In this document: positions 8,474 through 53,320 of the stretch, piece after piece
Position numbering within the stretch: position 1 is the first letter of the stretch
Layout: each line of letters starts with the position of its first letter
Notes under the pieces: model-generated
Seen by the model: only the letters and a program-made list of their open reading frames with translations
The model's database searches: none
Told to the model about the DNA's origin: nothing
IMG/VR virus record: IMGVR_UViG_3300050014_000073
Coordinates: 1 to 64,000 of that record
Source: a virus
DNA length: 64,000 nucleotides
Reading direction: 5' to 3' (one strand)
Translations under genes and position numbers: made by a program

Positions 8474-8572
8474 TTTAGCGACCCTAGGACCGTCGCTGCA
8501 TCCTAACCTATGGAAAAGTACCTAACAACCCGTCCGGACGTGTCCTAGCGACCCGTAGCGATCAGGTTTAGG
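8474..8572 (-). repeat. dispersed two-box element, copy 1
   Basis: CTACGGGTCGCTAGG-47 nt-GCGACGGTCCTAGGGTCGCTAAA; 32 bp identical to 41687-41718. Confidence 0.8.
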
Positions 8573-13880: not shown

Positions 13881-14138
13881 TCAGTTTGCTCCGTAAACAG
13901 GCTTCCCGTCTTTCATGATCCAGATGGGCGCTCCGTGGACTTCTTTCTCTTCGAACGCAGGCCGGATCTTAACAGGATACTTGGGCTTATATCCTGTCAC
14001 TGTCGCAGGAACGATGAACTTTAGGCAGATATCGTTTGGCTCGGGATCTCTGCTTGAGACATAATGCTGCGTAGGAAGTCCTTTAGCTCTCTGCCTCTCT
14101 CGCCACTGCCGAATACGTTCTTTCCCAGGAGTAGTCAT
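13881..14138 (-). CDS. hypothetical protein
   Basis: ATGA overlap with the polymerase stop. Confidence 0.5.
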   Translation of the reverse strand: MTTPGKERIRQWRERQRAKGLPTQHYVSSRDPEPNDICLKFIVPATVTGYKPKYPVKIRPAFEEKEVHGAPIWIMKDGKPVYGAN

Positions 14139-15049
14139 AATGAAACTACCGGCATCAGGTCGTTCCAATCCTTTGCGTCTATCTCTTTCTGCTTCACACG
14201 CCACTTTGTGAGGAACTCATCTAGAGGCTCGCCTTCGTATTCGATCATGCTTCCCATTGTCATTCCGGCTGTTGCTTCAGCTAGGATAGGAACACGAAGC
14301 TTCAACTTGAACTGCGTTTGGGCGTACTCATAAGCACCAACTTCGAACAAATGCATGAGCTGTTGATGCGCTTTAGCAATATCGCCGAGACGGACAATGA
14401 AATACAACGCATCGTGAACTTCCATGATGCAACGCTGGAGCAGATTATAAGTTCGTGGTTTCAGGTCCAGAAGGGCCAACGCAATGAGAAGGAACTGGTG
14501 AGCCGTTCCTTGAACAGGAGTGTTGATTGCTTGATTCCCCCAGTAGGTACTTCGAGTCGAGTCGTTCTCTCGAATCTCGCGCCGGAATCCGAACAGAGTC
14601 TCTACATAGTGGTTCTTCATAGCGAAGTCTCGCTGGCTATCGATGTAAGCAGCTACTCCACGGTACTTCTTGAAGTAATTGCGATGAAGTTGAATCATTC
14701 GGACTTTAGTGATTCCGGTTAGATCTGCGTTGGCGCCGTCTCTAGCACGTATTCGCGAGACAGTTGAAGGATAGATACTCTCCTCACCAAGACCAAACAC
14801 AATTCCGAAGTGGAGCTCTTTGCACATGCGACGAGTTTTCTTGTCTTTGGCTATACGCTCGAAATCCCATCCTGTGAGAGTATGACCAACTTGGCAGTGG
14901 ATGTCCTTCAACTTATTCTTGCGGTCCAGGGCAGCTTCCTGAAGCTGACGGATGAGTAACGGATCACCAGATATCTCTGCCAAAGCTCTTATCTCTATCT
15001 GGCTTCCATCTGCAGCTAACAAACAAAGAAGATCGGAAACATCTTTCAT
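14135..15049 (-). CDS. family A DNA polymerase, C-terminal catalytic part
   Basis: Motif A DGSQIEIR, motif B RRMCKELHFGIVFG, NTPVQGTA, motif C VHDAL. Confidence 0.92.
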   Translation of the reverse strand: MKDVSDLLCLLAADGSQIEIRALAEISGDPLLIRQLQEAALDRKNKLKDIHCQVGHTLTGWDFERIAKDKKTRRMCKELHFGIVFGLGEESIYPSTVSRIRARDGANADLTGITKVRMIQLHRNYFKKYRGVAAYIDSQRDFAMKNHYVETLFGFRREIRENDSTRSTYWGNQAINTPVQGTAHQFLLIALALLDLKPRTYNLLQRCIMEVHDALYFIVRLGDIAKAHQQLMHLFEVGAYEYAQTQFKLKLRVPILAEATAGMTMGSMIEYEGEPLDEFLTKWRVKQKEIDAKDWNDLMPVVSL

Positions 15050-16824
15050 AGAGCTTGTCTCCAATCCTCGTCTGCGATAAGAAGGTTTTGCAGCAAAATG
15101 TTTCCGTGGAGGTTCTGGAAATTTGTGATCCCCTCGGCTTCGGCACGGTCACCTTTTCCGCTTCGCAGCCTCCCAGTGATTGCGCCTGTGAGCCACCAAA
15201 TTGTACGGAGTTCCCCGTCATAAAGGCGTGCTCCCGTCTCATAACCTTTCAAGAACGTTGATTTAATCACACCTAAAGACCGGCGTTTTAGCACAATGTC
15301 TAAGGTGTTATTCTGCGTCTCGGCTTGAAGCAGACGGAGAACGTCTTTCTGAGTGGATCGGCCTTCATCTCCTTGCGGTAGCTGTAAGACGTCGTAGATC
15401 AACTTAGCAACCTGCTCTGGTGCGTTGCAATTGAAATTTGGATCCCCTGAAATCTGTTGGAGTTGCCGGTCGAGCTTCTCGATCATCTCCGGAACGATCT
15501 CCATAGCTTTCTTCCAATTGGGCCAGTCTAAACGGGGACCCCGAGTCTCCATTCGGTCTAGAGTTTTCCCGGCATGAATATAGACCTCGACAAGAGGCTG
15601 GCTGACTTGTGAAGAGAACCGTTGTTCTAGACGTTGCGTGATGTCACAGTCCCCAGAGTTCCTAAGAGAGAGACGGTCTATTGGTGCGTCGGCGAAATGT
15701 CCGCTCCATTCATCAACCGTACTCTTATAGTCACAAAATTCCGGGAAGAACCGATATGTTAAGTTCTCAAGGCTGCAACTTCTCAGAAAGCTGTAGCGCA
15801 AATATGTTCCGTATTGAGTATCATACGAGTAGCCTCGCAACGGAACACGAATAGTTTCTATACAGACGTCTGAATCGTACGAGCCATTCTGCAACGACTT
15901 TTTCAAGTCATGGTCAGCTACTAGTTTTGCAACTCGCTTCCGGATCTCTGAGAGATGAGTAGGCTCGTATCCTGATTGCGGATGATCAACTACAACTGAG
16001 AAGCATCGTCCCGTCCATGAACTAAAATCCTTTGGGTTCTGGTAATGACCCGTCCCGAATCCTGCGAGGAGTAACAGACGCTTCCCGTCTACGACATCAT
16101 CTTCAATGTCGAAACTGACTCGTCGATGCTGCCGTTGTTCAGTTCGTAGAATGCGTTCCATCTCATCGAACTCAGCGAGAGTCCTGACCGTTGTGTAGTT
16201 TTGTGCTTTGACGTAACCCCACCTCCCTGGATGGTCTAGGATCGCTCTAACAGCACGGAAGCGGTCACGCCAGGTAAAGTACTCCCATCCTGCTTGGACG
16301 CCTCCCTGCTGGTAGATGTAGCTTGGATGCCAGGACAATACAACGTAGCAGTCCCACGGTGGGAACCAAAATATGGGCTTGTCTTTCTTGAAGTTCTTTC
16401 CGAGAAGCTGATTCCCGGCAACGTCTCCAAGTATGACGTGAACAGCAGCACGTCCCGCGTTGAGGCGCAAGGCTTCGTCATTATACGGACTACAACACTG
16501 AAGTTCACGTTTGGTAGGTTCATGCTCTTCACCATCCGTCCCAAGAGGTTGACAGCGAAGGACATTGTTCACATCGAACTCTTCTCGCGAAAGTCCGGAG
16601 AGCTTCATCGTATCCCAAAGAAAAGTTCCTGTCGGTCCAACAAGTTCTATACGCTTCGCGTTCTCGTGGCCATCTGGCGACTGAGCCCATAGGAACCCCT
16701 TTCGTCCCTTAATTCGTTCGAGTCTCTTGACTTTGTTGACTCCAGGCATCTTGTCGAGAGGGCACTGCGAACATCCAAGGATTCCTTCACGAGATACCGG
16801 CTGCTCGAAGAGATTGAAAGGCAT
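15046..16824 (-). CDS. family A DNA polymerase, N-terminal part (UDG-like domain, 3'-5' exonuclease, thumb)
   Basis: CxxCPL, LVGPTG, NVLRCQP, WHPSY (UDG4-like); FDIED, NGSYD, YDTQ exonuclease motifs; TGRLRS..NFQN. Confidence 0.88.
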   Translation of the reverse strand: MPFNLFEQPVSREGILGCSQCPLDKMPGVNKVKRLERIKGRKGFLWAQSPDGHENAKRIELVGPTGTFLWDTMKLSGLSREEFDVNNVLRCQPLGTDGEEHEPTKRELQCCSPYNDEALRLNAGRAAVHVILGDVAGNQLLGKNFKKDKPIFWFPPWDCYVVLSWHPSYIYQQGGVQAGWEYFTWRDRFRAVRAILDHPGRWGYVKAQNYTTVRTLAEFDEMERILRTEQRQHRRVSFDIEDDVVDGKRLLLLAGFGTGHYQNPKDFSSWTGRCFSVVVDHPQSGYEPTHLSEIRKRVAKLVADHDLKKSLQNGSYDSDVCIETIRVPLRGYSYDTQYGTYLRYSFLRSCSLENLTYRFFPEFCDYKSTVDEWSGHFADAPIDRLSLRNSGDCDITQRLEQRFSSQVSQPLVEVYIHAGKTLDRMETRGPRLDWPNWKKAMEIVPEMIEKLDRQLQQISGDPNFNCNAPEQVAKLIYDVLQLPQGDEGRSTQKDVLRLLQAETQNNTLDIVLKRRSLGVIKSTFLKGYETGARLYDGELRTIWWLTGAITGRLRSGKGDRAEAEGITNFQNLHGNILLQNLLIADEDWRQAL

Positions 16825-16828
16825 TTCC

Positions 16829-17887
16829 TTACAAATCTGCTGCGAGAATGACGTTGTTCCGCGTTCCGTCCGTACAACGGAACACGCTGGCATTCGAGGT
16901 CTTAGCGAAAGTGACTTCGCATTCATCGTCGATCCCCGTAACGTATTCGAACCATGACGTAATACGGCGAACGGGCCACTTGACAGAAGCTGGCAGCGGA
17001 GTTCCTGTTTTGACAAGATCAATCGAACGTTGGAACTTGCTCGTATTAAGATCAACTGTCACAGTCAGGACGTTTGCCTTGACTTCGATCTCAGCAGCTT
17101 CGTTTTTGTCTACCAGAAATTGACTTGCTACCTGAAGAGCTTTGAGAAGCTCAGATCCTTTGATGACTGCGACGGCTGGGGATTTGACTCTCTCAGCAAG
17201 AGCATCTTTGCACTTGTCGATGGGGTATCCGGCAAGTTTCACGGACAGTGACTGGTAGACGTATCCGTTGGAGAGATCGACGCCGACGCCCGTCTTGTCA
17301 GCGGCAATCTTCCCGTCGTGACCAACGAGGAACTTTGCTACTTCAGCCGGTAGCATGAAATCGTGTTTGACGAGACTTCCAAGACATGCCATCATGAACA
17401 GCGTGTCCGTGACGAGAACTCCGTATCCAGAGCCAAAATAGACAGCCTCGACGTTTTCAGTTCCAGCCATGTTCGGGAGATACTTCACGGCAGTCTTGAG
17501 AGTGGTCTTCTGGTCGTCAGTCAAATCGAACGAGGCAGCGGGCTTCCAGCTTTCATATCCCGTGACGGGAGTGCGTGCGGCGACTTCGAGACGCTGACCG
17601 GACTTCAGCGTGAGCTTGTCTTTCGCGCAGTAAATCTCGATCTCGGTTCCGGTCGCAGTATCTAAGAACGCTTTCAAAGGGCGGCGGTCTAGGAACGACG
17701 TCCAGGCTCCTTTTCCTTCCGTTCCAGCGGCGTGAGCTTCCGCCCAGAGAGCTCCGGTAAGAGCAAGTGATATACTCTTGCCATCTGACTTCAGTCTAAC
17801 GAATTGACTGGAGTCTAGGACGGGACTTGTCTGAACGGAGTCAACGATCTTGAAAGCAGCTTGTAGGTCTTTGGTAGAGATTTTCAT
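16829..17887 (-). CDS. DNA sliding clamp (beta-clamp-like)
   Basis: 352 aa with DnaN-like alternating strand/helix pattern; adjacent to polymerase; loader present. Confidence 0.7.
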   Translation of the reverse strand: MKISTKDLQAAFKIVDSVQTSPVLDSSQFVRLKSDGKSISLALTGALWAEAHAAGTEGKGAWTSFLDRRPLKAFLDTATGTEIEIYCAKDKLTLKSGQRLEVAARTPVTGYESWKPAASFDLTDDQKTTLKTAVKYLPNMAGTENVEAVYFGSGYGVLVTDTLFMMACLGSLVKHDFMLPAEVAKFLVGHDGKIAADKTGVGVDLSNGYVYQSLSVKLAGYPIDKCKDALAERVKSPAVAVIKGSELLKALQVASQFLVDKNEAAEIEVKANVLTVTVDLNTSKFQRSIDLVKTGTPLPASVKWPVRRITSWFEYVTGIDDECEVTFAKTSNASVFRCTDGTRNNVILAADL

Positions 17888-22553: not shown

Positions 22554-23420
22554 TCATATCACAAGTTTTCTTGCAAGAACTCTTTGTATTCCAGCATCAG
22601 TATCAAGAACAGACCACGACTTGATTTTACTGCTTGCCTTCTTGATCTCTATAGCAATTGCTTCCGCGACGGCGGGAACGACTGCGTTCCCACACATTCG
22701 TTTACGAACGGCATCAGAAAATCCCGAAGTCCAGCCAATTGGAAATCCAAATCCGTATTCATACTCTTCCGCCAAAAGACGCCGTAACCCTTTTCCGGAC
22801 TTCCAAACGAAATTTGCATTACGAACATTTCCGCCTTCTTGTGACATAAGACAACCCAAAACTGCATGTTGAACTTTAGACAGCGCTTTACGAGATGATG
22901 GATTAGTTGCTTGGACATGAAACATTCGAATTGCAGTTTTGGAAGTACAGCCAACGACAAAGGCTCTTTCGCGGTTTTGAGGTACAAATTGGGAGGCGTT
23001 CGCCCAGATAACAACGACTGCGTATCCGCAGGCTTCCAGTGCGAGAGCGAACTCGTTAACATTTGGTGAAGGAACATTCTCGCGGACCACCCACCGAGGC
23101 GCGAGTCGTGCTGCCACGGCAAGGTAGTATCCGGACAAGTCGGGATGACGGCTTTCATGATTTCCTTTCGCAATAGAGCGCGCGGGGCAGGGGTCTCCTC
23201 CGATGATTACATCTGGAACTGGAATGGGATTGTTCCCTAAAAGTCTAGTTTTTAGAAGATCCTTGACATCAGAATAAATTGGAACTCCAGGAAACTTGTT
23301 ATGAAGCCGTTGACAGGATCGGTCTTTCTCACAGAACCAGATTGTCTTGAATCCTGCGTTGCAAAAGCCGAGATCCATTCCTCCGATTCCTGAGAACAGA
23401 CTTCCAACCGTCAGCTTCAC
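22554..23420 (-). CDS. C5 cytosine DNA methyltransferase
   Basis: SLFSGIGG, GDPCP, ENV, QNRER, GNAV. Confidence 0.92.
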   Translation of the reverse strand: MKLTVGSLFSGIGGMDLGFCNAGFKTIWFCEKDRSCQRLHNKFPGVPIYSDVKDLLKTRLLGNNPIPVPDVIIGGDPCPARSIAKGNHESRHPDLSGYYLAVAARLAPRWVVRENVPSPNVNEFALALEACGYAVVVIWANASQFVPQNRERAFVVGCTSKTAIRMFHVQATNPSSRKALSKVQHAVLGCLMSQEGGNVRNANFVWKSGKGLRRLLAEEYEYGFGFPIGWTSGFSDAVRKRMCGNAVVPAVAEAIAIEIKKASSKIKSWSVLDTDAGIQRVLARKLVI

Positions 23421-28167: not shown

Positions 28168-28371
28168 ATGGAATCCTATGCACTTGTCATATCGGAACAG
28201 TATCGTATCCTAGTTCACGAAGCAGGACTGAAAGAGGGTCGGAGTGGGAAGATTATGTATCCCGGTCCACTTCCTGTAGGAGCAATCCTGAAAGCTGACT
28301 GGGATCAGGGAGTTGAAGAGGGTCTCAAGGTGTTCAAGCAATCCAAGTCTCGCGAGAGGCTAGATTGCTAG
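28168..28371 (+). CDS. hypothetical protein
   Basis: In operon. Confidence 0.5.
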   Translation: MESYALVISEQYRILVHEAGLKEGRSGKIMYPGPLPVGAILKADWDQGVEEGLKVFKQSKSRERLDC

Positions 28372-29162
28372 ACGTCATCACTTTCGGAGAGACGCTCTTA
28401 CAAACACGGGACCTCGATCCAGTATACGTTATGCTGTACCGTTCTCAATTTTCGTTCTTCCAAAAAGAACGCTTTACCGTAGCGTACTGGCTATTCTATC
28501 ATTCAGGAGTTTCTGCACTGCTTTCTGAAAAGATGGGGCATGCGTTCTGGGACGCTTGCCAGGAACAGTTAACTCTTGCTCCAAGGGGAACGGAGAGACG
28601 ACACTTCCGTGGATCTGCTGCAACGAAAGCAGTCCAGGCTCTTCATAGTCTCTATCCAGATCCTGAAGATTTTGTGGAAGCAATGTGTCCATCTCAGAGT
28701 ACATGCGAGACGTTCCACACAGTTTCATCGCGAGTGGAAAAGCTTCCGCAGTTCGGACCTTGGATTGCTTTCAAAGTCTGTGATATGCTAGAACGTGTTC
28801 TAGATCGTCAGATTGATTCCTCAGGATGCATAGATCTTTGGTTTCGAGAGCCTCTTACTGGTGCAGAGAAAGCTGCTACTGCTTTCTCTCTTCCTTCCCG
28901 CGATGCTGCGATTCAGTTCCTTCTTGAGAAGTTTCATAGCTGGGGCGCTCCACCTGACTACAAGCGTAAAGTCAACTTGCAGGAGATCGAAACAATCTTA
29001 TGCAAGTGGAAGGCACATCTTGGAGGCCATTACGAGATTGGGAAGGATACTTACGAGATATTGCATGGACTCCGAAAGTATTCCTCACGCTCTTCTAGTG
29101 CTGCGCACCTGATAGACTGTTTGCAAGAAGGGACTTTGTGCAAGAGGAATACTCTTTGCTGA
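28365..29162 (+). CDS. amino acid:DNA transferase (aGPT-Pplase2 family)
   Basis: TRDLDPVY, RGTERRHFRG, FGPWIAFKVCDM, QEIETILCKWK. Confidence 0.85.
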   Translation: MLDVITFGETLLQTRDLDPVYVMLYRSQFSFFQKERFTVAYWLFYHSGVSALLSEKMGHAFWDACQEQLTLAPRGTERRHFRGSAATKAVQALHSLYPDPEDFVEAMCPSQSTCETFHTVSSRVEKLPQFGPWIAFKVCDMLERVLDRQIDSSGCIDLWFREPLTGAEKAATAFSLPSRDAAIQFLLEKFHSWGAPPDYKRKVNLQEIETILCKWKAHLGGHYEIGKDTYEILHGLRKYSSRSSSAAHLIDCLQEGTLCKRNTLC

Positions 29163-29737
29163 AACCACCTCACGTTCCGGTTATCAACATCCGTGGAGTA
29201 AACGGAAGTGGGAAGAGTTATCTAGTCCGTTCTTGGATGAAACTGCTTGGAGCGAAACCATATCCGCAGCGGTCAAATTTGTTTGGAGGAGAGACTGCAA
29301 CTGGAGCGGAGTACTATTTGCTTTCAGACGATGGAAGGGTGATCGGGGACTACCGTACCAATTGCGGAGGCTGTGACCGCATCCACTCCCAAGATGAAGT
29401 TGCGGACCATATTCGGTTAGGGATTTCCTCTGGTTCACGTTACGTTCTGTTCGAAGGTGTGATTCTCTCAACAGTGTTTGAGTATTGGCATCAGTTCAGC
29501 CAGTCCATCAACGGGATGCTCTGGGTCTATCTTGACACCCCACTGGAAGTTTGTTTGAAGAGGGTTTCCGAGCGAAACAAGAACAAGGCATTCAAAGAGA
29601 ATCTCGTTCGGGACAAGTTCCGGCAGGTTGCTTCCACGCGCCGTCGAGCAGAAGCCGCTGGAGAGAAAGTGTTTGAGATTCATTGGGAGAACGCAGAGAA
29701 AGAGCTAGAAAACCTCATAGCAGGATTAAACATATGA
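29138..29737 (+). CDS. P-loop kinase (5-hmdU DNA kinase type)
   Basis: NIRGVNGSGKS, GGCD, FEG, LDTPLEVCLKRV. Confidence 0.85.
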   Translation: MQEEYSLLKPPHVPVINIRGVNGSGKSYLVRSWMKLLGAKPYPQRSNLFGGETATGAEYYLLSDDGRVIGDYRTNCGGCDRIHSQDEVADHIRLGISSGSRYVLFEGVILSTVFEYWHQFSQSINGMLWVYLDTPLEVCLKRVSERNKNKAFKENLVRDKFRQVASTRRRAEAAGEKVFEIHWENAEKELENLIAGLNI

Positions 29738-29859
29738 AACTTCCTAAAGTTCGTATGCTCCGGCAGATTCTATATTGGATGGAGGAGCGACAGAGACGAA
29801 TGCGCCTGGCAAACGCCGCCGTATGGGTGTTACGGAAACAGAAGAGGAGACTTATATGA
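29734..29859 (+). pseudogene. 41-aa truncated paralog of the downstream aGPT-Pplase1 gene
   Basis: MKLPKVRMLRQILYWMEERQR vs MKLPPVRNLKKFLWFMEERQR. Confidence 0.7.
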
Positions 29860-30773
29860 AGTTGCCTCCGGTAAGGAACTTGAAGAAGTTTTTGTGGTTT
29901 ATGGAGGAGCGCCAAAGGGTTTATTTAAGGCGACAGGCAGGTGAACCTTATCCTTGGACTTCGGATCCCATCTTACGCCGCTTTCGATTTTGCAATGTTT
30001 ATCGAGAGCAGGATCGGGTGACGACTTTTTGGCGAGAACGTTGGGCAAAGAAATACGCTGATCACTCGAACTTATGGTTTGCTGCTTGCTTGTTTCGGCA
30101 CATCAACTGGCCCAATACGCTCGAAGAAATTGGATTCCCCAAAGAGTGGAATCCTCGTAAGGTCCTTCGCATTCTCGAGAAGCGGAAAGCACGGGGAGAT
30201 AAAGTCTACACAAGTGCTTATCTTCTCGGAGGCGGAAACACCAAGCATGAAACCAAAGTCCGCTACACGGTGATGACAGTATTGAATCCTGTGTGGAAGT
30301 GGGTTGAGAAGGCTCTTCCTGGAACGGGTCGTATTGCTCCTTGGTTAACTGACGGAACTGATGACGTTCCCTGTACGTTACGCGAAATGTTCGATTGGCT
30401 CTGCCAGTTCCACGGCTTCGGGAAGTTTCTCTCCTACGAAATCGTCACCGATCTTCGTCATACTCGTTATCTATGCAACGCTCCTGACATAATGACTTGG
30501 GCGAATCTCGGTCCGGGAGCGCAGCGCGGATTGAACCGTCTTTACGAACGGGAGCTGAATCAGTCACATCCCCAGGCTCAGCTTCTCGAAGAGCTTCTGG
30601 CAATTCAAGAGTGGGTGGTTAAGAACCGTGATTCGAGAGTTCTTCCTACGATAGAGCCACGAGATCTCGAACATAGTTTTTGCGAGTGCGACAAACTTCT
30701 TAGAGCCAAGGAGCGCCTTGTGCAAGGACGTATAATCGGTCTAGAAAGATTCAGACATCCAGGCTTGATTTGA
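29856..30773 (+). CDS. aGPT-Pplase1 family DNA hypermodification protein
   Basis: ERQRVY..PWTSDPIL..FCNVYREQDRVT, FRHINW, GKFLSYEIVTD, GPGAQRGL, EHSFCECDK. Confidence 0.88.
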   Translation: MKLPPVRNLKKFLWFMEERQRVYLRRQAGEPYPWTSDPILRRFRFCNVYREQDRVTTFWRERWAKKYADHSNLWFAACLFRHINWPNTLEEIGFPKEWNPRKVLRILEKRKARGDKVYTSAYLLGGGNTKHETKVRYTVMTVLNPVWKWVEKALPGTGRIAPWLTDGTDDVPCTLREMFDWLCQFHGFGKFLSYEIVTDLRHTRYLCNAPDIMTWANLGPGAQRGLNRLYERELNQSHPQAQLLEELLAIQEWVVKNRDSRVLPTIEPRDLEHSFCECDKLLRAKERLVQGRIIGLERFRHPGLI

Positions 30774-30791
30774 CGAAGGAGAAATCATAAC

Positions 30792-31274
30792 ATGATAAAC
30801 GCAAGTGAGTTTTACGGACCGCGCCGTCTCAAGGCGCGAAACAACAATACGCTGCTCAAGGGCAACATGATCCCGCGACGGTTCAAGTCCATCGTCATTC
30901 GTGTGACGGGAGTTCGTTCAGCTCCTTCTGACTGGGACTGCCGGCTTATTCTGGACTTCGATTTCCATCCCGAAGCTCTCGAAGCTCTTCGAGGATCGGA
31001 AGCAGCTAGTGCTCATTCCTGGGCTGTAAACAAGACTAATGGCCAGCGGCTTCGTTCGTACTTATCAGCTTCTGACGACTTCGAGGAACTGGTCGACTGC
31101 CGTGTCCGTCTCAAGGTCATTCCGCAACGTGACCCGAAGTCGGGCGAGCGTGTTCGTTCGCTGGAAGTGACTTCTCTAGCACGCGAAGGGTCAACTCATT
31201 GGGAAGTGCTGGCCTCCTCCGGTAGAGATTGCGGAAGAAGACGAAACGTATTTTTCGTATCCTCCTGTTTTTGA
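30792..31274 (+). CDS. hypothetical protein (3' end may be frameshifted)
   Basis: AAGGAG RBS. Confidence 0.6.
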   Translation: MINASEFYGPRRLKARNNNTLLKGNMIPRRFKSIVIRVTGVRSAPSDWDCRLILDFDFHPEALEALRGSEAASAHSWAVNKTNGQRLRSYLSASDDFEELVDCRVRLKVIPQRDPKSGERVRSLEVTSLAREGSTHWEVLASSGRDCGRRRNVFFVSSCF

Positions 31275-31296
31275 GGAGGAGAAAACGGAACTGTTT

Positions 31297-32190
31297 TTGA
31301 AGATCTTCATCCCCACTAAAGGACGTCCGGTTCGGATCAGTACTCACAAGTACTTCCCTTCCGCTTACGTTGTTGTACACAACGAGCAGGAAGCGGAGCA
31401 GTATCGCGCGAATGCAACGATCGATCCTAAACGGATTCTCATTAGTGGAGCGAAGACCGATGCGTTCGGCCTAACTCGACAACGTGAATGGGTGTGCCAG
31501 ACGCAAGCAAAGAAGAATGAGTGGATTCTGTTCGCTGACGATAACATCTATTACTTGCTAGCGATGGATAAGGAACACTATGGTTTTCCAGAAGTTCTAC
31601 TGACGGCAGACCATACCAGATTGTCGGAAGAAGAGAAAGCGACGGCTCGCAAGGAAGGTGCGATCTGGCGTCCTCGTTTCAACACGCGAGTCCCGGTAGA
31701 ACGGTTCTTGAGGGAGATCGTTCCGGATACAGTTTCTCATTGTGAGATTATCGGAGCACACCTTGCAGGGTTTTCTCTTACAGATAACATCTTATTTCGG
31801 CGAAAGAAGTTTGTTGACGTCGGATACGTCATAGGCAAGTTGATGCTCTGGCACAACACTGGGCATGTCCCCTTCGACCATACAGTCACGATGGAAGACT
31901 TCTATCACACAGCCGAGAACCTGAAGCGATACGGAGTTTGCGTAGTAAACAACTTCGTTGCGGTCCGCCCGACGAATTGTCACTATCTTCCAGGCGGAAT
32001 GGGAACGTATGACGAGCGAGTTCCGTATCGCAAGCGGGACGTGGAAACTTTGTTAGCACGGTATCCTGGGATGTTGGCAGTGAAGGACAGAGAGGGATTT
32101 GTTCCAGGAACTGACTTGCGTCTTCTCTTGCATTCACGTGAGGATGTTCAACGATGGCAACGAGCGCAGAAGCGCACAAGATTGTTTTAG
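31297..32190 (+). CDS. GT-A fold glycosyltransferase (phage DNA-modification type)
   Basis: IFIPTKGR, LFADDNI, MEDF, PGGMG. Confidence 0.8.
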   Translation: MKIFIPTKGRPVRISTHKYFPSAYVVVHNEQEAEQYRANATIDPKRILISGAKTDAFGLTRQREWVCQTQAKKNEWILFADDNIYYLLAMDKEHYGFPEVLLTADHTRLSEEEKATARKEGAIWRPRFNTRVPVERFLREIVPDTVSHCEIIGAHLAGFSLTDNILFRRKKFVDVGYVIGKLMLWHNTGHVPFDHTVTMEDFYHTAENLKRYGVCVVNNFVAVRPTNCHYLPGGMGTYDERVPYRKRDVETLLARYPGMLAVKDREGFVPGTDLRLLLHSREDVQRWQRAQKRTRLF

Positions 32191-32196
32191 GAGGAT

Positions 32197-33222
32197 TTGA
32201 TGCGAACTGTGGATCTTAGTCGTGGTGAGCAGGTTCGTCTGTTCAACGGTTTGGCAATCGAGATTGCAAGCAAGTGCAATCGAACTTGCTACTTCTGCCC
32301 GAACGGATACAACCAGCGTGAAGATGTCTTCATGCTGGAGGAAACGGTCTCACGTTTGCTGGAAGAGCTCTCACGCTTGAAGTACTCTGGGCGTATCGAG
32401 TGGTACATCTACAACGAACCGACACGTGACGAACGGCTGAAGATGTTCATTCGTTGGGCGCGAGTTCAGGTTCCGCGCGCTTGCCAGATGATCAACACGA
32501 ACGGTGACTATTTCAAGGATAAGTTTGACATCGCTGCATTGTTCTTTGCTGGTCTCAATCAGATGCAGATCAACATCTACAGCGCGCAGGATAACGCAGA
32601 GAATGATAAGACGTTTGAGAACGGCGTTGCGCAAGCGCGAAAGCGTGAAGCGCAGCTACAATCGTGGGTTGATAAGATCTCCCCAACAATGAATATCCAT
32701 TCGGATGCGAGTCTCTACTTGAACTCAGGCCCGCGAAAGCGTATTTGCAAAGTCGTGGCGAAGTATGGCGTCCGTCCCAGTTTCAAGGATAGTGATCTCG
32801 AGGGGCCAAATCACTTCTCGAACCGCAGTGGAAACATTCCTGGTTTCCGCAATGGGCTTACAGAACCACTGAAGAAGATGTGTGTGCGCCCGTTCAGGTT
32901 TCTCAATATAGATTACCAGGGCGATGCCCTTCTTTGTTGTAACGACTACCATGGAGTTGTTAAGATCGGGAACGTGAAGGACCATACGCTGGTGGAATTG
33001 TGGAACTCTTCGGTTCTCAATCGTTATCGTGTCAAGTTGCAAGGTCATGATCGTAATTCAGCACTGTGCGACAAATGCGACTACAACGGGGGACACTATC
33101 AACATCAGGTGGGACACGTTACGACGGGGTCAGCGGAACAGGATGTGGAGTGGGTACAGGAGCCGTTTTATCCGGGCGGACTGGTTCAGATCGCGCCGAA
33201 GACGGATAAGAGGTTGATTTAG
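32197..33222 (+). CDS. radical SAM enzyme with SPASM/twitch domain
   Basis: CNRTCYFC, NEP, NTNG, CVRPF..LCCND..CDKC. Confidence 0.92.
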   Translation: MMRTVDLSRGEQVRLFNGLAIEIASKCNRTCYFCPNGYNQREDVFMLEETVSRLLEELSRLKYSGRIEWYIYNEPTRDERLKMFIRWARVQVPRACQMINTNGDYFKDKFDIAALFFAGLNQMQINIYSAQDNAENDKTFENGVAQARKREAQLQSWVDKISPTMNIHSDASLYLNSGPRKRICKVVAKYGVRPSFKDSDLEGPNHFSNRSGNIPGFRNGLTEPLKKMCVRPFRFLNIDYQGDALLCCNDYHGVVKIGNVKDHTLVELWNSSVLNRYRVKLQGHDRNSALCDKCDYNGGHYQHQVGHVTTGSAEQDVEWVQEPFYPGGLVQIAPKTDKRLI

Positions 33223-33228
33223 AGCTAT

Positions 33229-33313
33229 TACGGATTGCTAGGTCGTTTCCGTGGCATCCGGTTTGTGGAAAGTACCGTATAACTAGTCTAGCGACGGTCC
33301 TAGGGTCGCTAAA
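33229..33313 (+). repeat. dispersed two-box element, copy 3
   Basis: TACGGATTGCTAGG-48 nt-GCGACGGTCCTAGGGTCGCTAAA. Confidence 0.75.
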
Positions 33314-33360
33314 CACAAACGTCTTCGACTTCTTTCTGGAAATCGGAAAGGAAAGAAACA

Positions 33361-34374
33361 ATGCAAGTAATACGAGTAAGAAACATCAACCAAGCGTGGG
33401 ATCATGCAAAGATCCTTCTCAATGCCAATCACACAACTCGTCCCAGTCGGGTCGGGGAGGTGATTGAATACCCCGACCCAGTCACGACGGTCTACGAGAA
33501 GCCGTGTGAGCGTGTCCTCTTCAATGAGAAGCGGAATGCTAATTGCTTTTTCAATTTCATGGAAGCAATGCATATGCTTGCGGGCCGAAATGATGTCGCG
33601 TGGCTGGAACGATTCAATTCCAAGATTCGCGATTTCATCGGTAACGTGGAAGTGCAGCATGGTGCATACGGCTACCGCTGGCGAAAGTTCTTCGACATGG
33701 ACGGGGGCGCAGAGGATGACTATGCGGACCAGATTCTCAAGATCATTCGGATGCTGAAGAAGAACCCCGATGAACGCCGCGCTGTTCTTACCATGTGGAG
33801 TCCGTTGGCGGACTTGGAACGACCAGATCTTGCAGACGTGCCGTGCAATTTGATCTGCACGTTCAAGATTCGAGGCGGTGCTCTCGACATGATTGTCTTC
33901 TGTCGTTCAAATGACATTGTGTTTGGCGCGTATTCTGCAAATCAAGTGCACTTCAGCTTTCTGCTGGAGTACATGGCTTCTATGATCGGAGTACCGGTTG
34001 GGCGTTACTTTCAGATCTCGGACTCTTGGCACGCTTACACTTCTCGTTGGTCCGAATTTGGCGGTCTTGATCCCACTCCGACGATTGATCGCTATGCGTT
34101 GGGCATGGTTCCGTTCCCGCTGGTTGATCATCCTGAGACGTGGGACGAAGATCTGAAGCGGTGGATGGAACGAGACTTCACGCAAGAGTTCTCCAATCGG
34201 TTCTTCTCACGAGTTGCTGAGCCGATGTGGCTCTCATGGTCAGAATACAAGCATAACAATCTCGACAACGCAATTAGGGTTATACGGAATTGTGATGCAG
34301 CTGACTGGCGCTGGGCGGGAACAGAGTGGTTGCTCAACATCCAGAGGAAGCGAGCAGAGAAGGGGAAGAAATGA
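33361..34374 (+). CDS. thymidylate synthase-fold enzyme, likely dUMP hydroxymethylase
   Basis: AYGYRW, RRAVL, PCN, RSND..GAYSAN (Asn indicates dUMP specificity), HAY. Confidence 0.88.
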   Translation: MQVIRVRNINQAWDHAKILLNANHTTRPSRVGEVIEYPDPVTTVYEKPCERVLFNEKRNANCFFNFMEAMHMLAGRNDVAWLERFNSKIRDFIGNVEVQHGAYGYRWRKFFDMDGGAEDDYADQILKIIRMLKKNPDERRAVLTMWSPLADLERPDLADVPCNLICTFKIRGGALDMIVFCRSNDIVFGAYSANQVHFSFLLEYMASMIGVPVGRYFQISDSWHAYTSRWSEFGGLDPTPTIDRYALGMVPFPLVDHPETWDEDLKRWMERDFTQEFSNRFFSRVAEPMWLSWSEYKHNNLDNAIRVIRNCDAADWRWAGTEWLLNIQRKRAEKGKK

Positions 34375-34562
34375 GACAGGAAGATCCAAAGTCGACTTTA
34401 ATTGAACGATTTCGGGTATGGCGTCTCTTCTGGGTTGCTTGCCGTGTCCCGAGACGGAACGATCTCTATATCAACAAGAACGGCTTGCTTCAACGTTGTA
34501 AGACGACGAACTACTCGCGTCGCGCTCAAAAGCGTACAATTGTGAAAGAGGGATGGAAGTGA
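34371..34562 (+). CDS. small hypothetical protein
   Basis: ATGA overlap with the TS-fold gene. Confidence 0.45.
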   Translation: MRQEDPKSTLIERFRVWRLFWVACRVPRRNDLYINKNGLLQRCKTTNYSRRAQKRTIVKEGWK

Positions 34563-35149
34563 AGAATCTTTTTGAAAATCTGATGTGGTTCCGAAGATTT
34601 GGTTCAACGAGACGCTTCCATTCTGAGACGTTCATCGGAACACCAGAGACAGTTCTACACCACTCTGCTAGTACAGCTCTTATCCTGATTCAGGTCTTAG
34701 GAGAAAACGTCTCCGTCAACTTGCTCAAGGCTGCTCTGTGCCACGATCTCGAAGAGGGACTTACAGGCGACGTCCCCGCGCCGGTCAAGTGGGCTATTGG
34801 AAATACGTTCGAAGAGTTGGAGCGTCGGATTCGTGTGTTCCACGATATTCCGTTCCCAGGATTGAACGGCGAGGAACAGCATCAGCTCAAGGCTGCGGAT
34901 TTTCTGGACTGCGCGATGACGTGTCTCATGCAGCGAAAGATGGGGAACTCTCTAATTGATACGGTTTTCGAGAACTTAGTCGAGTATGAAAACCGAAGTC
35001 CGATCTTGGGCTACGTTGAGACAATTCTGTTCCTCTATCTCTGGCGAGAAGTCAAAGCGGAATACAGACAGACGGTTAGCGGAAGCCGATATGGAAGCGT
35101 CGGTCACCCCTTCTGGAGTCAAGATGCCAAAAGTGAGAAGCAAAGCTGA
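34553..35149 (+). CDS. HD-domain deoxynucleotide phosphohydrolase (YfbR/DatZ-like)
   Basis: RRFH, HHS, CHDLEE..TGDVPAPVK, AAD. Confidence 0.88.
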   Translation: MEVKNLFENLMWFRRFGSTRRFHSETFIGTPETVLHHSASTALILIQVLGENVSVNLLKAALCHDLEEGLTGDVPAPVKWAIGNTFEELERRIRVFHDIPFPGLNGEEQHQLKAADFLDCAMTCLMQRKMGNSLIDTVFENLVEYENRSPILGYVETILFLYLWREVKAEYRQTVSGSRYGSVGHPFWSQDAKSEKQS

Positions 35150-35741
35150 GTTCTTCCGGCTGTCACAGGAAATGGTCTTCGGGAATCGTCTTCAGCAATT
35201 CGGGTGGAAACTCTTCGATGAAATGTTTCAAGACTGCCGGAACGCAAGATGTATTGGTCGCGAACCTTGGTACGATAGCGAACTTCCTCCTATGCCTGAA
35301 AAGGTCAGTGTTAGGAACGTACTTGCAGGTGGCGATGAACGGGTTCAACGGTATCGTCTCGGACCAGCTTTCGCTCATGCTCATTGTGTCTCGTTGATCA
35401 AGACCCACATCGTCACTCCTGAACAGCTCATACTTGATGAGAGTGCTCCAGATCATCTAGTCACGTTGCAAGCAGAAGTCCGGAATAGCGAAAGGTTTAT
35501 TGACATGCGATTCGCGCTGCATTCTGGAGTAGGGATGCGACCTGCTTATGCCGCAATGAAGCCCGTGAGTGGGATTCGGGCCGTGACAATCCTGAAAGAG
35601 TACCTGGACGCACCGTCTTGGGACAACCTCTGTGAAATTCTTCATGTATATAGCGAAAGTGTCGTAGAGCTGAGTTCGTACTCAGTTCCAGTAGGAGTTC
35701 TGGGTCTCTCGACAATTATTTGGGAAGTGAGGAATTATTGA
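35124..35741 (+). CDS. hypothetical protein
   Basis: GGAG RBS before ATG 35124. Confidence 0.65.
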   Translation: MPKVRSKAEFFRLSQEMVFGNRLQQFGWKLFDEMFQDCRNARCIGREPWYDSELPPMPEKVSVRNVLAGGDERVQRYRLGPAFAHAHCVSLIKTHIVTPEQLILDESAPDHLVTLQAEVRNSERFIDMRFALHSGVGMRPAYAAMKPVSGIRAVTILKEYLDAPSWDNLCEILHVYSESVVELSSYSVPVGVLGLSTIIWEVRNY

Positions 35742-35742
35742 T

Positions 35743-35978
35743 ATGAGAGTTCTTGTTGTTGTTGGTGGCCAGCCTGGATCTGAAGCTAAAGGAAAGGCAT
35801 GCGTATTTGTCTGGATTACCTAGACGCAAAGGACAGAAACGTTCGTAGGAGCGTCGATTTGGGTAAGAGATCTCACAAGTTCCTTCACGAGTTGGAGACC
35901 CGTACGGAACTGAGAGTAGGTCTTGCATTCACAGGTCCGCATCAAGACGATCTCGTTTATTGGGATTCTGTTTTGTGA
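35743..35978 (+). pseudogene. internally deleted adenylosuccinate-synthetase-family gene (PurZ-like)
   Basis: N-terminus MRVLVVVGGQPGSEAKGK; out-of-frame C-terminus ICLDYLD..FLHELETRTELRVGLAFTGP. Confidence 0.75.
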
Positions 35979-53231: not shown

Positions 53232-53320
53232 GCTACGGGTCGCTAGGGCAGCTTGCAAGGGTCTAACTAGTATATTTCATAGGGTAGCCGGTCAGAGACC
53301 GTCCTAGGGTCGCTAAACAC
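53232..53320 (+). repeat. dispersed two-box element, copy 5
   Basis: GCTACGGGTCGCTAGG-47 nt-GAGACCGTCCTAGGGTCGCTAAACAC. Confidence 0.8.

What the first reader, a model, noticed from the sequence alone, without database searches (positions are those of the whole stretch)
28365..35741. Thymidine hypermodification cluster with an unusual enzyme mix
TS-fold hydroxymethylase, P-loop kinase, both aGPT-Pplase1 and aGPT-Pplase2, a GT-A glycosyltransferase, a radical SAM/SPASM enzyme and an HD hydrolase form one cluster. Known pathways (ViI, M6, SP10, PhiW-14) phosphorylate 5hmdU in DNA and substitute amino acids or amines. Transferase plus sugar transferase plus radical SAM together predict one or more possibly uncharacterised bases.
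Basis: partly seen in the sequence, partly recalled or inferred. Interest (0 to 1): 0.72.

Follow-up and report, generated by a model that had tools for sequence, protein, structure and literature searches.

The report
Phage thymine-decorating cluster, two routes combined
An uncultured phage carries the known genes for hanging an amino acid on its thymines, plus a sugar-adding enzyme paired with a radical enzyme, so its DNA probably holds modified bases that nobody has yet described.

Summary
Nine co-directional genes at 28365-35741 of an 83-kb IMG/VR phage record encode AADT/aGPT-Pplase2, a P-loop 5-hmdU DNA kinase, aGPT-Pplase1, a 160-aa unknown, a TAGT-type GT-A glycosyltransferase, a radical SAM enzyme, a TS-fold dUMP-type hydroxymethylase and an HD hydrolase.

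Five genes match phage M6 gp51/54/55/58/59 at 32-43% identity. M6's PLP decarboxylase and rSAM isomerase are absent.

The radical SAM enzyme is BtrN-like (profile E 1e-36, next PDB hit 1e-4), with all seven cluster cysteines. In 19 distinct related loci it sits beside a TAGT glycosyltransferase in 12 and a TS or TET/JBP gene in 13. AADT appears in 1, weakly.

Conversely, 0 of 77 AADT phage loci carry this glycosyltransferase or rSAM. The mix is therefore real and rare.

Best reading: two branches act on 5-hmdU DNA.
- Kinase plus AADT gives an amino-acid adduct, probably glycine.
- The glycosyltransferase gives a base-J-like sugar, which the rSAM tailors, probably by oxidation.

No product is shown. 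The scan has already reported the glycosyltransferase/BtrN-like module on at least five other genomes. I class this as a new variant of a known kind.

The parts
28365..29162 (+). Amino acid:DNA transferase (AADT / ADDT / aGPT-Pplase2), 265 aa
   Evidence: Pfam PF18724, E 2.1e-16, over its cut-off. 37% identical over 284 columns to M6 gp51, the tested glycine:DNA transferase (Lee 2021, section read). 35.9% to the PaMx11 homologue and 25.7% to PhiW-14 gp109. 807 homologues.
29138..29737 (+). P-loop 5-hmdU DNA kinase (5-HMUDK), 199 aa
   Evidence: Pfam PF18748, E 1.9e-14. 40% identical to M6 gp54. Walker A motif GVNGSGKS is visible in the translation.
29775..30773 (+). aGPT-Pplase1 / 'HMUDK_hel' helical protein, 332 aa; biochemical role not established
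   Evidence: Pfam PF18723, E 1.9e-51. 40% identical to M6 gp55. Present in 9 of 9 rSAM-clade loci that have a TS gene and in 0 of 8 that have TET. Mostly found there without a kinase (KIN in 2 of 19).
30792..31274 (+). 160-aa protein of unknown function
   Evidence: No hit in Pfam, PHROGs, NCBIfam or PADLOC. AGGAG lies upstream of the ATG. Atlas neighbours are phage hypotheticals only. Absent from the closest relative L084, where hel abuts GT.
31297..32190 (+). TAGT-family GT-A glycosyltransferase, 297 aa
   Evidence: Pfam TAGT, E 3.8e-9. 49 homologues. Invariant R10, R63, D81, D82, D201 fit the R...DDD...EDY/F motif quoted in the Mahler preprint. Model pLDDT 95.7. GT-A matches in PDB. Phage TAGT proteins match at TM up to 0.84.
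32197..33222 (+). BtrN-like twitch radical SAM enzyme, 341 aa
   Evidence: phmmer to BtrN 4m7s, E 4.9e-26. Family profile to BtrN, E 1.1e-36, with the next PDB hit at 1.3e-4. C27/C31/C34 and C229/C247/C291/C294 are invariant and align to BtrN cysteines. 225 homologues.
33361..34374 (+). TS-fold pyrimidine hydroxymethylase, dUMP type, 337 aa
   Evidence: Pfam Thymidylat_synt, E 3.8e-21. phrog_5131, E 7.9e-93. 43% identical to M6 gp58. Catalytic Cys in DVPCNL. Asn at the position where TS has Asn and the CMP hydroxymethylase MilA has Asp.
34553..35149 (+). HD-domain hydrolase, YfbR-like 5'-deoxynucleotidase family, 198 aa
   Evidence: Pfam YfbR-like, E 4.6e-9, and HD_3. 32% identical to M6 gp59. 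His and HD motifs are visible.
35127..35741 (+). Small ATP-grasp-like protein, about 204 aa (the ORF is open from 34986)
   Evidence: No Pfam hit for it or for 46 relatives. 688 representative relatives. Model pLDDT 94.4. All top Foldseek and VIA matches are ATP-grasp enzymes, best Z 8.3, rmsd 3.9-4.0, 153-158 residues aligned, TM at most 0.5. Lies directly after TS or TS-HD in 5 of 5 loci where it was found.

Best explanation
This is a thymidine hypermodification cluster that joins two post-replicative routes on one precursor.

Shown by homology: the TS-like enzyme is a dUMP-type hydroxymethylase of the M6 kind. It would supply 5-hmdUMP, so that 5-hmdU replaces T in new DNA. The HD hydrolase and the ATP-grasp-like protein, which always sits next to TS, probably act at the nucleotide-pool level. 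That role is inferred.

Branch A, inferred from 37-40% identity to tested enzymes: the P-loop kinase phosphorylates 5-hmdU in DNA. The AADT then displaces the phosphate with a free amino acid, most likely glycine, giving an N-alpha-glycinylthymidine-like base. No known tailoring enzyme follows, so this adduct may be the end product.

Branch B, inferred from fold, motifs and conserved gene neighbourhood: the TAGT-type GT-A enzyme puts a sugar on the hydroxymethyl group of 5-hmdU, as in base J. The BtrN-like radical SAM enzyme then tailors that sugar or its nucleotide-sugar donor. The most likely reaction is oxidation of a secondary alcohol to a ketone.

aGPT-Pplase1 travels with the TS gene rather than with the kinase. 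It is probably a factor that handles 5-hmdU DNA; its exact role is unknown.
For: Synteny and identity to M6 gp51, gp54, gp55, gp58 and gp59 is 32-43%. Lee 2021 shows gp54 plus gp51 suffice to make N-alpha-GlyT.

The AADT is nearest to the two glycine transferases, M6-like at 37-38% and PaMx11 at 35.9%. It is further from the putrescine enzyme at 25.7%.

The TS has Asn at the uracil/cytosine-discriminating position.

The GT has a GT-A fold, the TAGT family match and the conserved motif.

For the rSAM, BtrN is by far the closest solved enzyme, and all seven cluster cysteines are kept. [quoted passage not shown]

Neighbourhood of the rSAM clade, 19 distinct loci with at least 2 kb on each side: TAGT-type GT in 12, TS or TET in 13, HEL in 12, KIN in 2, ADDT in 1. 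Four more carry an adjacent 424-452-aa protein. One of these gives a weak, sub-threshold Glycos_transf_1 hit.

The Pfam tally of 131 flanking ORFs gave TAGT 15, HMUDK_hel 12, TS 9, Tet_JBP 5.

The GT family also occurs without the rSAM: 27 loci, 25 next to TET, 0 with rSAM. The rSAM therefore looks like an add-on to the GT, not the reverse.

ADDT is absent from 3 of 3 complete relatives' genomes.
Against: There is no chemistry here; every step rests on homology or context.

BtrN similarity does not fix the substrate or the reaction type. Epimerisation or dehydration are equally radical-SAM-like.

Two of the 19 clade loci (L007, L116) show no GT and place the rSAM beside kinase and HEL. The rSAM might therefore act on the base or on another intermediate.

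Distant rSAM relatives at 25-30% identity sit in other contexts. Of 132 flanking ORFs, 19 are SDRs and 1 is a TAGT.

The Pfam TAGT match covers only residues 1-89 of this GT.

Both branches would compete for the same 5-hmdU, and nothing shows that both are active.

The glycine assignment rests on only about 37% identity.

The record is estimated 80% complete, so missing tailoring genes could lie in the unsampled part.

The ATP-grasp call is of middling strength: Z 8.3, TM at most 0.5.
Confidence: 0.55

Rival explanations
1. One linear pathway makes a composite base. The AADT first attaches an amino acid, for example serine, threonine or glycine. The GT then glycosylates that adduct, and the rSAM and/or the ATP-grasp protein finish it, giving a glyco-amino-acid thymine.
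For: All the genes lie in one tight co-directional block. A probable second phage carries the same trio: the AADT, rSAM and GT homologues at 53-56% identity each report a longest contig of 68,330 bp. That suggests the combination is kept together. No known tailoring enzyme follows the AADT.
Against: The same GT and rSAM families work without any AADT in relatives: 0 of 3 complete genomes, 1 weak case in 19 loci, and 0 of 27 GT loci. Their ancestral acceptor is therefore the hydroxymethyl base itself. This GT is 52-56% identical to those relatives.
Confidence: 0.2
2. The rSAM acts on the base rather than on a sugar. For example, it could oxidise the 5-hydroxymethyl group to 5-formyl-dU, or rearrange the amino-acid adduct as M6 gp53 does. 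The GT would then be a separate decoration.
For: Radical SAM dehydrogenases oxidise alcohols (BtrN). L007 and L116 have the rSAM next to kinase and HEL with no GT detected. M6 does use an rSAM on the glycine adduct.
Against: There is no sequence similarity to M6 gp53. 12 of 19 clade loci carry a TAGT-type GT, and 4 more carry an adjacent protein with only a weak GT-B signal. The rSAM also occurs in TET-based loci that have no kinase or AADT. BtrN's substrate is a sugar-like cyclitol.
Confidence: 0.15
3. The GT and rSAM do not modify DNA at all. They could be an auxiliary sugar-metabolism or host-surface module that happens to lie inside the nucleotide-metabolism region.
For: Distant rSAM relatives in phages sit beside SDRs, 2OG oxygenases and other GT families, in contexts not obviously linked to DNA. 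The Mahler preprint notes that about 65% of GT-A/GT-B contigs lack a base-modification neighbour.
Against: In this clade the pair is repeatedly wedged between aGPT-Pplase1 and the TS gene, or next to TET/JBP. The GT belongs by sequence and structure to the phage TAGT family, which includes the T-even beta-glucosyl-HMC alpha-glucosyltransferase type.
Confidence: 0.07

Closest known systems
Pseudomonas phage M6 5-NedU cluster (gp51 AADT, gp52 PLP decarboxylase, gp53 rSAM isomerase, gp54 5-HMUDK, gp55, gp58 TS-like, gp59 HD); Lee 2018 PMC5889632, Lee 2021 PMC8989533
   Same: The order is the same: AADT, kinase, Pplase1, TS-like, HD. Identities are 37, 40, 40, 43 and 32%. The logic is the same: 5-hmdU, then phosphorylation, then amino-acid substitution.
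   Different: There is no homologue of gp52 or gp53, and no PALP-type PLP enzyme in the record. A TAGT GT, a BtrN-like rSAM and a 160-aa ORF lie between Pplase1 and TS. An ATP-grasp-like gene follows HD.
Pseudomonas phage PaMx11 5-AcNmdU cluster (gp46 AADT, gp47 FAD lyase, gp48 acetyltransferase, gp49 kinase); Lee 2021; structures in PMC11472151
   Same: The AADT is 35.9% identical. The kinase plus glycine-transferase start is the same.
   Different: No FAD lyase or acetyltransferase was found among the cluster ORFs. The sugar branch is absent from PaMx11 as described (Table 1 read).
Base J pathway of kinetoplastids (JBP hydroxylase plus JGT glucosyltransferase) and phage TET/5mYOX plus GT-A pathways (Burke 2021 PMC8256090; Mahler preprint 10.1101/2023.12.21.572611; T-dioxygenases PMC13229309)
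   Same: A GT-A enzyme of the TAGT/JGT-like class is predicted to glycosylate a 5-hydroxymethylpyrimidine in DNA. Close relatives of this GT sit next to TET/JBP in 25 of 27 loci. The motif is the same.
   Different: Here the hydroxymethyl base comes from a pre-replicative TS-like enzyme, and no TET is in the record. A BtrN-like rSAM partners the GT. 'Radical SAM' occurs 0 times in the text of these three papers. An AADT/kinase branch coexists with it.
BtrN, the radical SAM 2-deoxy-scyllo-inosamine dehydrogenase of butirosin biosynthesis (PDB 4M7S/4M7T)
   Same: The family profile matches at E 1.1e-36. The CX3CX2C motif and four auxiliary-cluster cysteines align. N209-R210 align with BtrN N151-R152 and are invariant.
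   Different: The phage enzyme has about 100 extra residues between the core and the twitch domain (query 111-208 is unaligned). It sits in a phage DNA-modification context rather than an aminoglycoside pathway. Substrate and reaction are untested.
TS + aG/PT-PPlase1 (+ 5'-deoxynucleotidase + 'beta-glucosyl-HMC-alpha-glucosyltransferase') partner genes of HTVC023P-type pelagiphages (PMC9599517)
   Same: The same four families are co-located near PolA. The authors note that this 'potentially broadens the functionality' (passages read). L244 shows exactly this set, HEL-GT-TS-HD.
   Different: That paper does not mention a radical SAM enzyme (0 occurrences), an AADT or a kinase. The set is uncharacterised there too.

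Membership tests
Kinase/AADT thymidine hypermodification pathway (M6, PaMx11, ViI, PhiW-14 type) | TS-fold dUMP hydroxymethylase supplying 5-hmdU | tested here: met
   TS family hit. 43% identical to M6 gp58. Catalytic Cys present, and Asn at the uracil-specifying position. Hydroxymethylase versus methylase chemistry is inferred, not shown.
Kinase/AADT thymidine hypermodification pathway (M6, PaMx11, ViI, PhiW-14 type) | P-loop 5-hmdU DNA kinase | tested here: met
   PF18748, 54.1 bits against a cut-off of 27. 40% identical to M6 gp54.
Kinase/AADT thymidine hypermodification pathway (M6, PaMx11, ViI, PhiW-14 type) | Amino acid:DNA transferase (aGPT-Pplase2) | tested here: met
   PF18724, 60.8 bits against a cut-off of 26.2. 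37% identical to M6 gp51.
Kinase/AADT thymidine hypermodification pathway (M6, PaMx11, ViI, PhiW-14 type) | A known tailoring enzyme (PLP decarboxylase, gp53-type rSAM isomerase, FAD lyase or acetyltransferase) | tested here: not met
   No blastp match to M6 gp52 or gp53. No PALP or DegT family match in the 83-kb record. None among the cluster Pfam hits. The record is about 80% complete.
Kinase/AADT thymidine hypermodification pathway (M6, PaMx11, ViI, PhiW-14 type) | Hypermodified thymidine detected in DNA | not testable with these tools
   Needs nucleoside LC-MS.
TAGT / JGT-like GT-A DNA glycosyltransferases | Family profile match over the curated cut-off | tested here: met
   PF20691, 37.2 bits against a cut-off of 27.5, but over residues 1-89 only. 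Relatives match the full length.
TAGT / JGT-like GT-A DNA glycosyltransferases | GT-A fold with the R...DD(D/N)...ED(Y/F) motif | tested here: met
   Model pLDDT 95.7. TarP, TarS and GpgS matches. Phage TAGT proteins at TM 0.6-0.84. R10, D81, D82 and D201 are invariant. The motif is as quoted.
TAGT / JGT-like GT-A DNA glycosyltransferases | Sugar transfer to a 5-hydroxymethylpyrimidine in DNA | not testable with these tools
   Supported only by context: next to TS or TET in relatives.
BtrN-like twitch radical SAM dehydrogenases | CX3CX2C radical SAM cluster motif | tested here: met
   C27, C31 and C34 are invariant in 30 sequences. They align to BtrN C16, C20 and C23, the RS-cluster ligands.
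BtrN-like twitch radical SAM dehydrogenases | One auxiliary [4Fe-4S] cluster with four Cys ligands | tested here: met
   C229, C247, C291 and C294 are invariant and align to four BtrN cysteines. Four-Cys ligation in BtrN comes from the passages. Which BtrN residues are the ligands is recalled, not checked.
BtrN-like twitch radical SAM dehydrogenases | Two-electron oxidation of a secondary alcohol on a sugar-like ring | not testable with these tools
   Needs an anaerobic enzyme assay.
ATP-grasp superfamily (for the 35127-35741 product) | ATP-grasp nucleotide-binding fold | tested here: inconclusive
   All top Foldseek and VIA rows are ATP-grasp enzymes. However, the best Z is 8.3 (rmsd 3.9-4.0, 153-158 residues aligned) and TM is at most 0.5. 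There is no Pfam hit and no PDB sequence hit.
YfbR-like HD 5'-deoxynucleotidases | Family match over the cut-off and an HD motif | tested here: met
   PF12917, 36.7 bits against a cut-off of 25.9. The HD dyad is visible. Substrate is untested.

The most novel reading that the evidence does not exclude
This phage's DNA carries two chemically unrelated thymine hypermodifications at once: an amino-acid adduct, and a base-J-like sugar that a radical SAM enzyme has converted to a keto or otherwise altered sugar. Alternatively, they are fused into a single glyco-amino-acid base. Either outcome would be a nucleobase chemistry not yet described, and the first radical SAM enzyme shown to tailor a sugar on DNA.
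Probability: 0.35. Interest if true: 0.8.

Novelty: new variant of a known kind. Interest (0 to 1): 0.62.

Why it matters
Phage DNA hypermodifications defeat restriction and CRISPR defences, and they supply enzymes for DNA labelling and sequencing chemistry.

The tailoring enzymes described for thymidine are rSAM isomerases, PLP decarboxylases, flavin lyases and acetyltransferases. A glycosyltransferase coupled to a BtrN-like radical SAM enzyme would add sugar chemistry, possibly keto-sugar chemistry, to that list.

This window offers a natural case in which that module shares one precursor with the classical amino-acid route. It allows a direct test of whether a phage can partition 5-hmdU between two modifications.

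The neighbourhood data raise a second question. aGPT-Pplase1, which Pfam now calls a 'kinase helical domain', follows the TS gene and not the kinase, so its role is open again.

Tried and rejected
**Nucleotide and protein similarity to cultured phages**
- Megablast of the 7.4-kb cluster against 50,697 phage records gave no match, so no cultured close relative exists.
- tblastn of the rSAM against the same records gave 1 weak hit at 24.8%.

**Scans for related loci**
- Single-sequence scans of viral contigs with the rSAM and the GT found nothing usable. Alignment-based scans worked.
- The idea that the 25-30% identical phage rSAMs share the DNA-modification context was rejected. Their 132 flanking ORFs are mostly SDRs and oxygenases.

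**M6-type chemistry**
- The idea that the rSAM is an M6 gp53-type isomerase was rejected; blastp found no match.
- A TET/JBP source of the hydroxymethyl base in this phage was rejected, despite a C5-cytosine methylase at 22554-23420.
- A dCMP-type hydroxymethylase was rejected on the Asn/Asp position.

**The unnamed ORFs**
- orf160: no family, only phage hypotheticals.
- The Atlas search for the last ORF gave only chance-level LRR leads. I dropped these in favour of the fold result.

**The 68,330-bp contig**
- It probably carries AADT, GT and rSAM together, but I could not fetch it.
- The same-contig claim therefore rests only on equal contig lengths.

**Promoters and terminators**
- The scan was no better than shuffles: 7 promoter-like sites against 7.3 expected, 10 terminator-like against 8.4.

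**Literature**
- I found no paper describing a glycosyltransferase or a BtrN-like rSAM in thymidine hypermodification. The in-paper finds were.
The supplementary figures and tables of Lee 2021 and of the Mahler preprint list co-occurring domains, including 'annotated viperins'. They may already show this rSAM and I could not check them.
- The role of BtrN Arg152 as a catalytic base is recalled only. The structure paper is not held, and neither is Iyer 2013.

The rSAM itself was not folded.

Full report
**What the DNA is**

The window is bases 1-64000 of an 83,140-bp linear IMG/VR virus record, estimated 80% complete.

It carries phage replication genes on the minus strand:
- a PolA with a UDG domain
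- a primase
- a DnaB-like helicase
- a clamp-loader-like ATPase
- a 5'-3' exonuclease
- a RecA-like protein with an intein
- a C5-cytosine methylase

It carries packaging and head genes on the plus strand: a terminase and a Mu-type portal.

No tRNA was found. No cultured phage is close at the nucleotide level.

**The observation**

Nine plus-strand ORFs run from 28365 to 35741, with gaps of -25 to 178 nt. Pfam assigns seven of them:

| ORF | Pfam assignment | E-value |
|---|---|---|
| 28365-29162 | ADDT | 2.1e-16 |
| 29138-29737 | 5-hmdU DNA kinase | 1.9e-14 |
| 29775-30773 | HMUDK_hel | 1.9e-51 |
| 31297-32190 | TAGT, residues 1-89 | 3.8e-9 |
| 32197-33222 | SPASM / Radical_SAM | 4.4e-12 / 4.1e-5 (below cut-off) |
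| 33361-34374 | thymidylate synthase | 3.8e-21 |
| 34553-35149 | YfbR-like HD | 4.6e-9 |

The ORFs at 30792-31274 and 34986-35741 have no hit. PHROGs, NCBIfam and PADLOC add little.

JGI names relatives of the first protein 'aGPT pyrophosphorylase clade 2' or 'Amino acid:DNA transferase'. The Pplase1 = PF18723 equation rests on the match to M6 gp55 and on my recall of the older Pfam name.

**Relation to the characterised pathway**

I fetched the M6 cluster and compared the proteins.

| Window protein | M6 protein | Identity |
|---|---|---|
| AADT | gp51 | 37% |
| kinase | gp54 | 40% |
| Pplase1 | gp55 | 40% |
| TS-like | gp58 | 43% |
| HD | gp59 | 32% |

The gene order is the same. Nothing matches gp52 (PLP decarboxylase) or gp53 (rSAM isomerase).

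Lee 2021 shows that gp54 plus gp51 are sufficient to turn 5-hmdU DNA into N-alpha-glycinylthymidine. The same paper shows that ViI gp247 and PhiW-14 gp109 transfer serine and putrescine (section read).

Against all phage records the window's AADT is nearest to M6-like proteins (37-38%) and PaMx11 (35.9%). Both of those are glycine transferases. It is far from PhiW-14 gp109 at 25.7%. Glycine is therefore the best guess for the donor, at modest confidence.

The TS-like protein keeps the catalytic Cys. It has Asn where thymidylate synthases have Asn and where the CMP hydroxymethylase MilA has Asp. This fits a dUMP substrate. That this position sets uracil versus cytosine preference is established knowledge that I recall, not something read here.

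The 83-kb record has no TET/JBP, no PALP-type PLP enzyme and no DegT aminotransferase.

**The radical SAM enzyme**

Its best solved relative is BtrN at E 4.9e-26.

A profile of 30 family members (A1) hits BtrN at 1.1e-36. The next PDB sequence scores only 1.3e-4.

C27, C31 and C34 align to BtrN C16, C20 and C23. Four further invariant cysteines (C229, C247, C291, C294) align to four BtrN cysteines. The invariant N209-R210 aligns to BtrN N151-R152.

BtrN is a twitch-domain enzyme with a four-Cys auxiliary cluster. It oxidises 2-deoxy-scyllo-inosamine to the ketone (passages read).

The phage protein has about 100 extra residues between the core and the twitch domain.

The family is large: 225 proteins at E <= 1e-3 among 1056 candidates.

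**The glycosyltransferase**

Forty-nine homologues were found. In a 47-sequence alignment R10, R63, D81, D82, D201, G233 and G234 are invariant. This matches the R...DDD...EDY/F signature that the Mahler preprint gives for phage GT-A DNA glycosyltransferases and JGT.

The AlphaFold model (pLDDT 95.7) matches several kinds of protein:
- GT-A enzymes in the PDB such as TarP, TarS and GpgS, at E about 1e-4
- phage TAGT-domain proteins, with TM up to 0.84

**Gene neighbourhoods**

*The rSAM alignment.* It retrieved 80 viral and 80 metagenome loci. With local HMMs, 44 loci score at least 200 bits for the rSAM. These collapse to 36 distinct loci, of which 19 have at least 2 kb on both sides.

| Gene family | Loci out of 19 |
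|---|---|
| TAGT-family GT | 12 |
| aGPT-Pplase1 | 12 |
| TS-like gene | 9 |
| TET/JBP gene | 4 |
| TS or TET | 13 |
| HD gene | 4 |
| kinase | 2 |
| AADT-like ORF | 1 |

The single AADT-like ORF is in L116, and Pfam did not confirm it.

Four of the seven loci without a TAGT-type GT (L004, L014, L093, L087) carry an adjacent 424-452-aa protein. These proteins are 31-38% identical between different phages. One gives a sub-threshold Glycos_transf_1 hit at 23 bits against a cut-off of 26.4, and two give no Pfam hit. Calling them glycosyltransferases is therefore tentative.

An independent Pfam tally was run on 131 neighbour ORFs. These were ORFs of at least 150 aa within 3.6 kb, from 22 loci that I chose from the better-flanked relatives. 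It gave TAGT 15, HMUDK_hel 12, Thymidylat_synt 9, Tet_JBP 5 and YfbR-like 4.

In whole virus records, ADDT is present in 1 of 10 (this one). It is present in 0 of 3 relatives that are at least 90% complete. The kinase is in 2 of 10, and one of those is below its cut-off.

The closest relative, L084 (rSAM 72% identical), has Pplase1-GT-rSAM-TS-HD-ATP-grasp in the same order. Its contig ends about 300 nt upstream of the Pplase1 ORF, so AADT and kinase cannot be judged.

*The opposite view.* 77 viral loci were fetched with a 56%-identical AADT.

| Gene family | Loci out of 77 |
|---|---|
| kinase | 75 |
| Pplase1 | 61 |
| TS | 52 |
| HD | 39 |
| this GT | 0 |
| this rSAM | 0 |

*The GT alignment.* The scan returned 28 viral loci. 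The GT profile finds the GT in 27 of them. Of those 27, 25 have TET/JBP adjacent, 1 has Pplase1-GT-TS-HD, 0 have the rSAM and 0 have an AADT.

*What follows from these tallies.* This GT family works on hydroxymethylpyrimidine DNA without the rSAM. The rSAM clade almost always comes with a GT. That pattern is what one expects if the rSAM tailors the sugar.

The combination with AADT and kinase seen in this window is rare. It may recur once. The AADT, rSAM and GT homologues P0321, P0025 and P0123 (56, 53 and 54% identity) each report a longest contig of 68,330 bp. I could not fetch that contig.

More distant rSAM relatives (25-30% identity) live in other contexts: SDRs are 19 of 132 flanking ORFs, and TAGT is 1. 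The inference therefore applies to this clade only.

**The remaining genes**

The last ORF (35127-35741) has 688 representative relatives and no Pfam or PDB sequence hit.

Its model (pLDDT 94.4) matches only ATP-grasp enzymes at the top of both Foldseek and VIA-align lists: succinyl-CoA synthetase beta, RimK, synapsin, PPDK, LysX and Ddl. The best Z is 8.3, rmsd 3.9-4.0, 153-158 residues aligned, TM at most 0.5. This is a middling match.

In all 5 loci where the family was found, the gene lies directly after TS or TS-HD. L176 and L177 look like the same phage. I therefore place it with the nucleotide-level steps. It could instead ligate something to the glycine carboxylate.

The 160-aa ORF has a ribosome-binding site but no relatives of known function. 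It is missing from L084.

**aGPT-Pplase1**

In the rSAM clade it accompanies the TS-like gene in 9 of 9 loci and TET in 0 of 8 loci. It is mostly found without a kinase.

The pelagiphage paper likewise reports TS always paired with Pplase1, sometimes with a 5'-deoxynucleotidase and a TAGT-type GT.

In Lee 2021, gp55 was dispensable for N-alpha-GlyT formation in lysates.

Its role is open. Pfam's label 'kinase helical domain' does not fit these kinase-free genomes.

**Mechanism proposed**

1. The TS-like enzyme makes 5-hmdUMP.
2. HD and perhaps the ATP-grasp protein bias the nucleotide pool.
3. 5-hmdU is incorporated into new DNA.
4. The kinase plus AADT convert part of it to a glycine-type adduct.
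5. The GT converts another part to a glycosyl-5-hmdU.
6. The BtrN-like rSAM alters that sugar, or the nucleotide-sugar donor, most simply by oxidising an alcohol to a ketone.

Every step after gene identity is inference. The rivals are a single composite pathway, an rSAM acting on the base, and a role unrelated to DNA. They are weighed in their own sections.

**Novelty**

The pieces belong to known kinds: thymidine hypermodification clusters, TAGT DNA glycosyltransferases and twitch rSAMs.

A GT plus BtrN-like rSAM pairing in a thymidine cluster was not found described in the papers I could search. The in-paper finds were. Supplements were closed.

The Mahler preprint mentions 'annotated viperins' near GT/ThyS pathways. 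This rSAM gives a weak PADLOC pVip hit at E 2.9e-7, so those annotations may be this family.

Earlier reports of this scan, which I saw only after my own analysis, describe the same GT/BtrN-like module on at least five other genomes. Their readings agree with mine.

What is particular here is its coexistence with a complete kinase/AADT branch.

Noticed in passing
window 33290-33313 (+), 8474-8497 (-), 53294-53320 (+): A motif of about 25 nt with an inverted repeat (GCGAC...GTCGC followed by TAAA) occurs three times in the genome. One copy lies in the rSAM-TS gap, 48 nt before the TS start. The others lie just upstream of the genes that start at 8462 (-) and 53333 (+). It is a candidate phage regulatory hairpin or promoter element.
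   Followed up: partly
loci (e.g. L004, L006, L084, L093 versus L010, L012, L085, L113): aGPT-Pplase1 (Pfam 'HMUDK_hel') accompanies the TS-like gene in 9 of 9 rSAM-clade loci and TET/JBP in 0 of 8. It is usually found with no kinase nearby. The 'kinase helical domain' label may therefore be misleading.
   Followed up: partly
window 35127-35741; L084:4875-5492, L104:10481-11050, L166:6322-6927, L177:12837-13400: A widespread family of ATP-grasp-like proteins of about 190 aa, absent from Pfam (688 representatives), sits immediately downstream of the TS-like hydroxymethylase, often with overlapping stop and start.
   Followed up: partly
window 15046-17055 (-) and 14135-15064 (-): The family A DNA polymerase is split over two adjacent ORFs, and the first carries an N-terminal UDG domain. 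A relative (L009:10842-12773) has UDG + exonuclease + PolA followed by a Hint domain, so an intein or a split gene is possible.
   Followed up: no
window 9971-11695 (-): A RecA-like protein is interrupted by an intein splicing domain.
   Followed up: no
window 22554-23420 (-): A C5-cytosine DNA methylase is present in a genome with no TET/JBP. The phage probably also carries 5-methylcytosine.
   Followed up: no
window 57239-60826 (+): A 1195-aa protein combines histidine phosphatase, LigT/2'-5' RNA ligase-like and XkdF-type protease domains next to the head genes.
   Followed up: no
window 35744-35821 (+): A short ORF right after the cluster begins with a P-loop-like VVVGGQPGSEAKGK stretch. 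Earlier notes read it as a fossil PurZ-like gene. I did not test that.
   Followed up: no
L116:647-5471: One metagenome locus has kinase, a weak AADT-like ORF, the BtrN-like rSAM and Pplase1, with no glycosyltransferase detected. It is a counter-example to the sugar-tailoring reading and is worth a look.
   Followed up: partly
L015-L083 (viral contigs): Phage rSAMs 25-30% identical to this one are flanked by short-chain dehydrogenases (19 of 132 flanking ORFs), 2OG oxygenases and JmjC proteins. This looks like a different, unexplained module.
   Followed up: no
window 32197-33222: The rSAM gives a weak PADLOC 'pVip' hit at E 2.9e-7. The 'annotated viperins' reported near GT/ThyS pathways in the Mahler preprint may be this family.
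   Followed up: no
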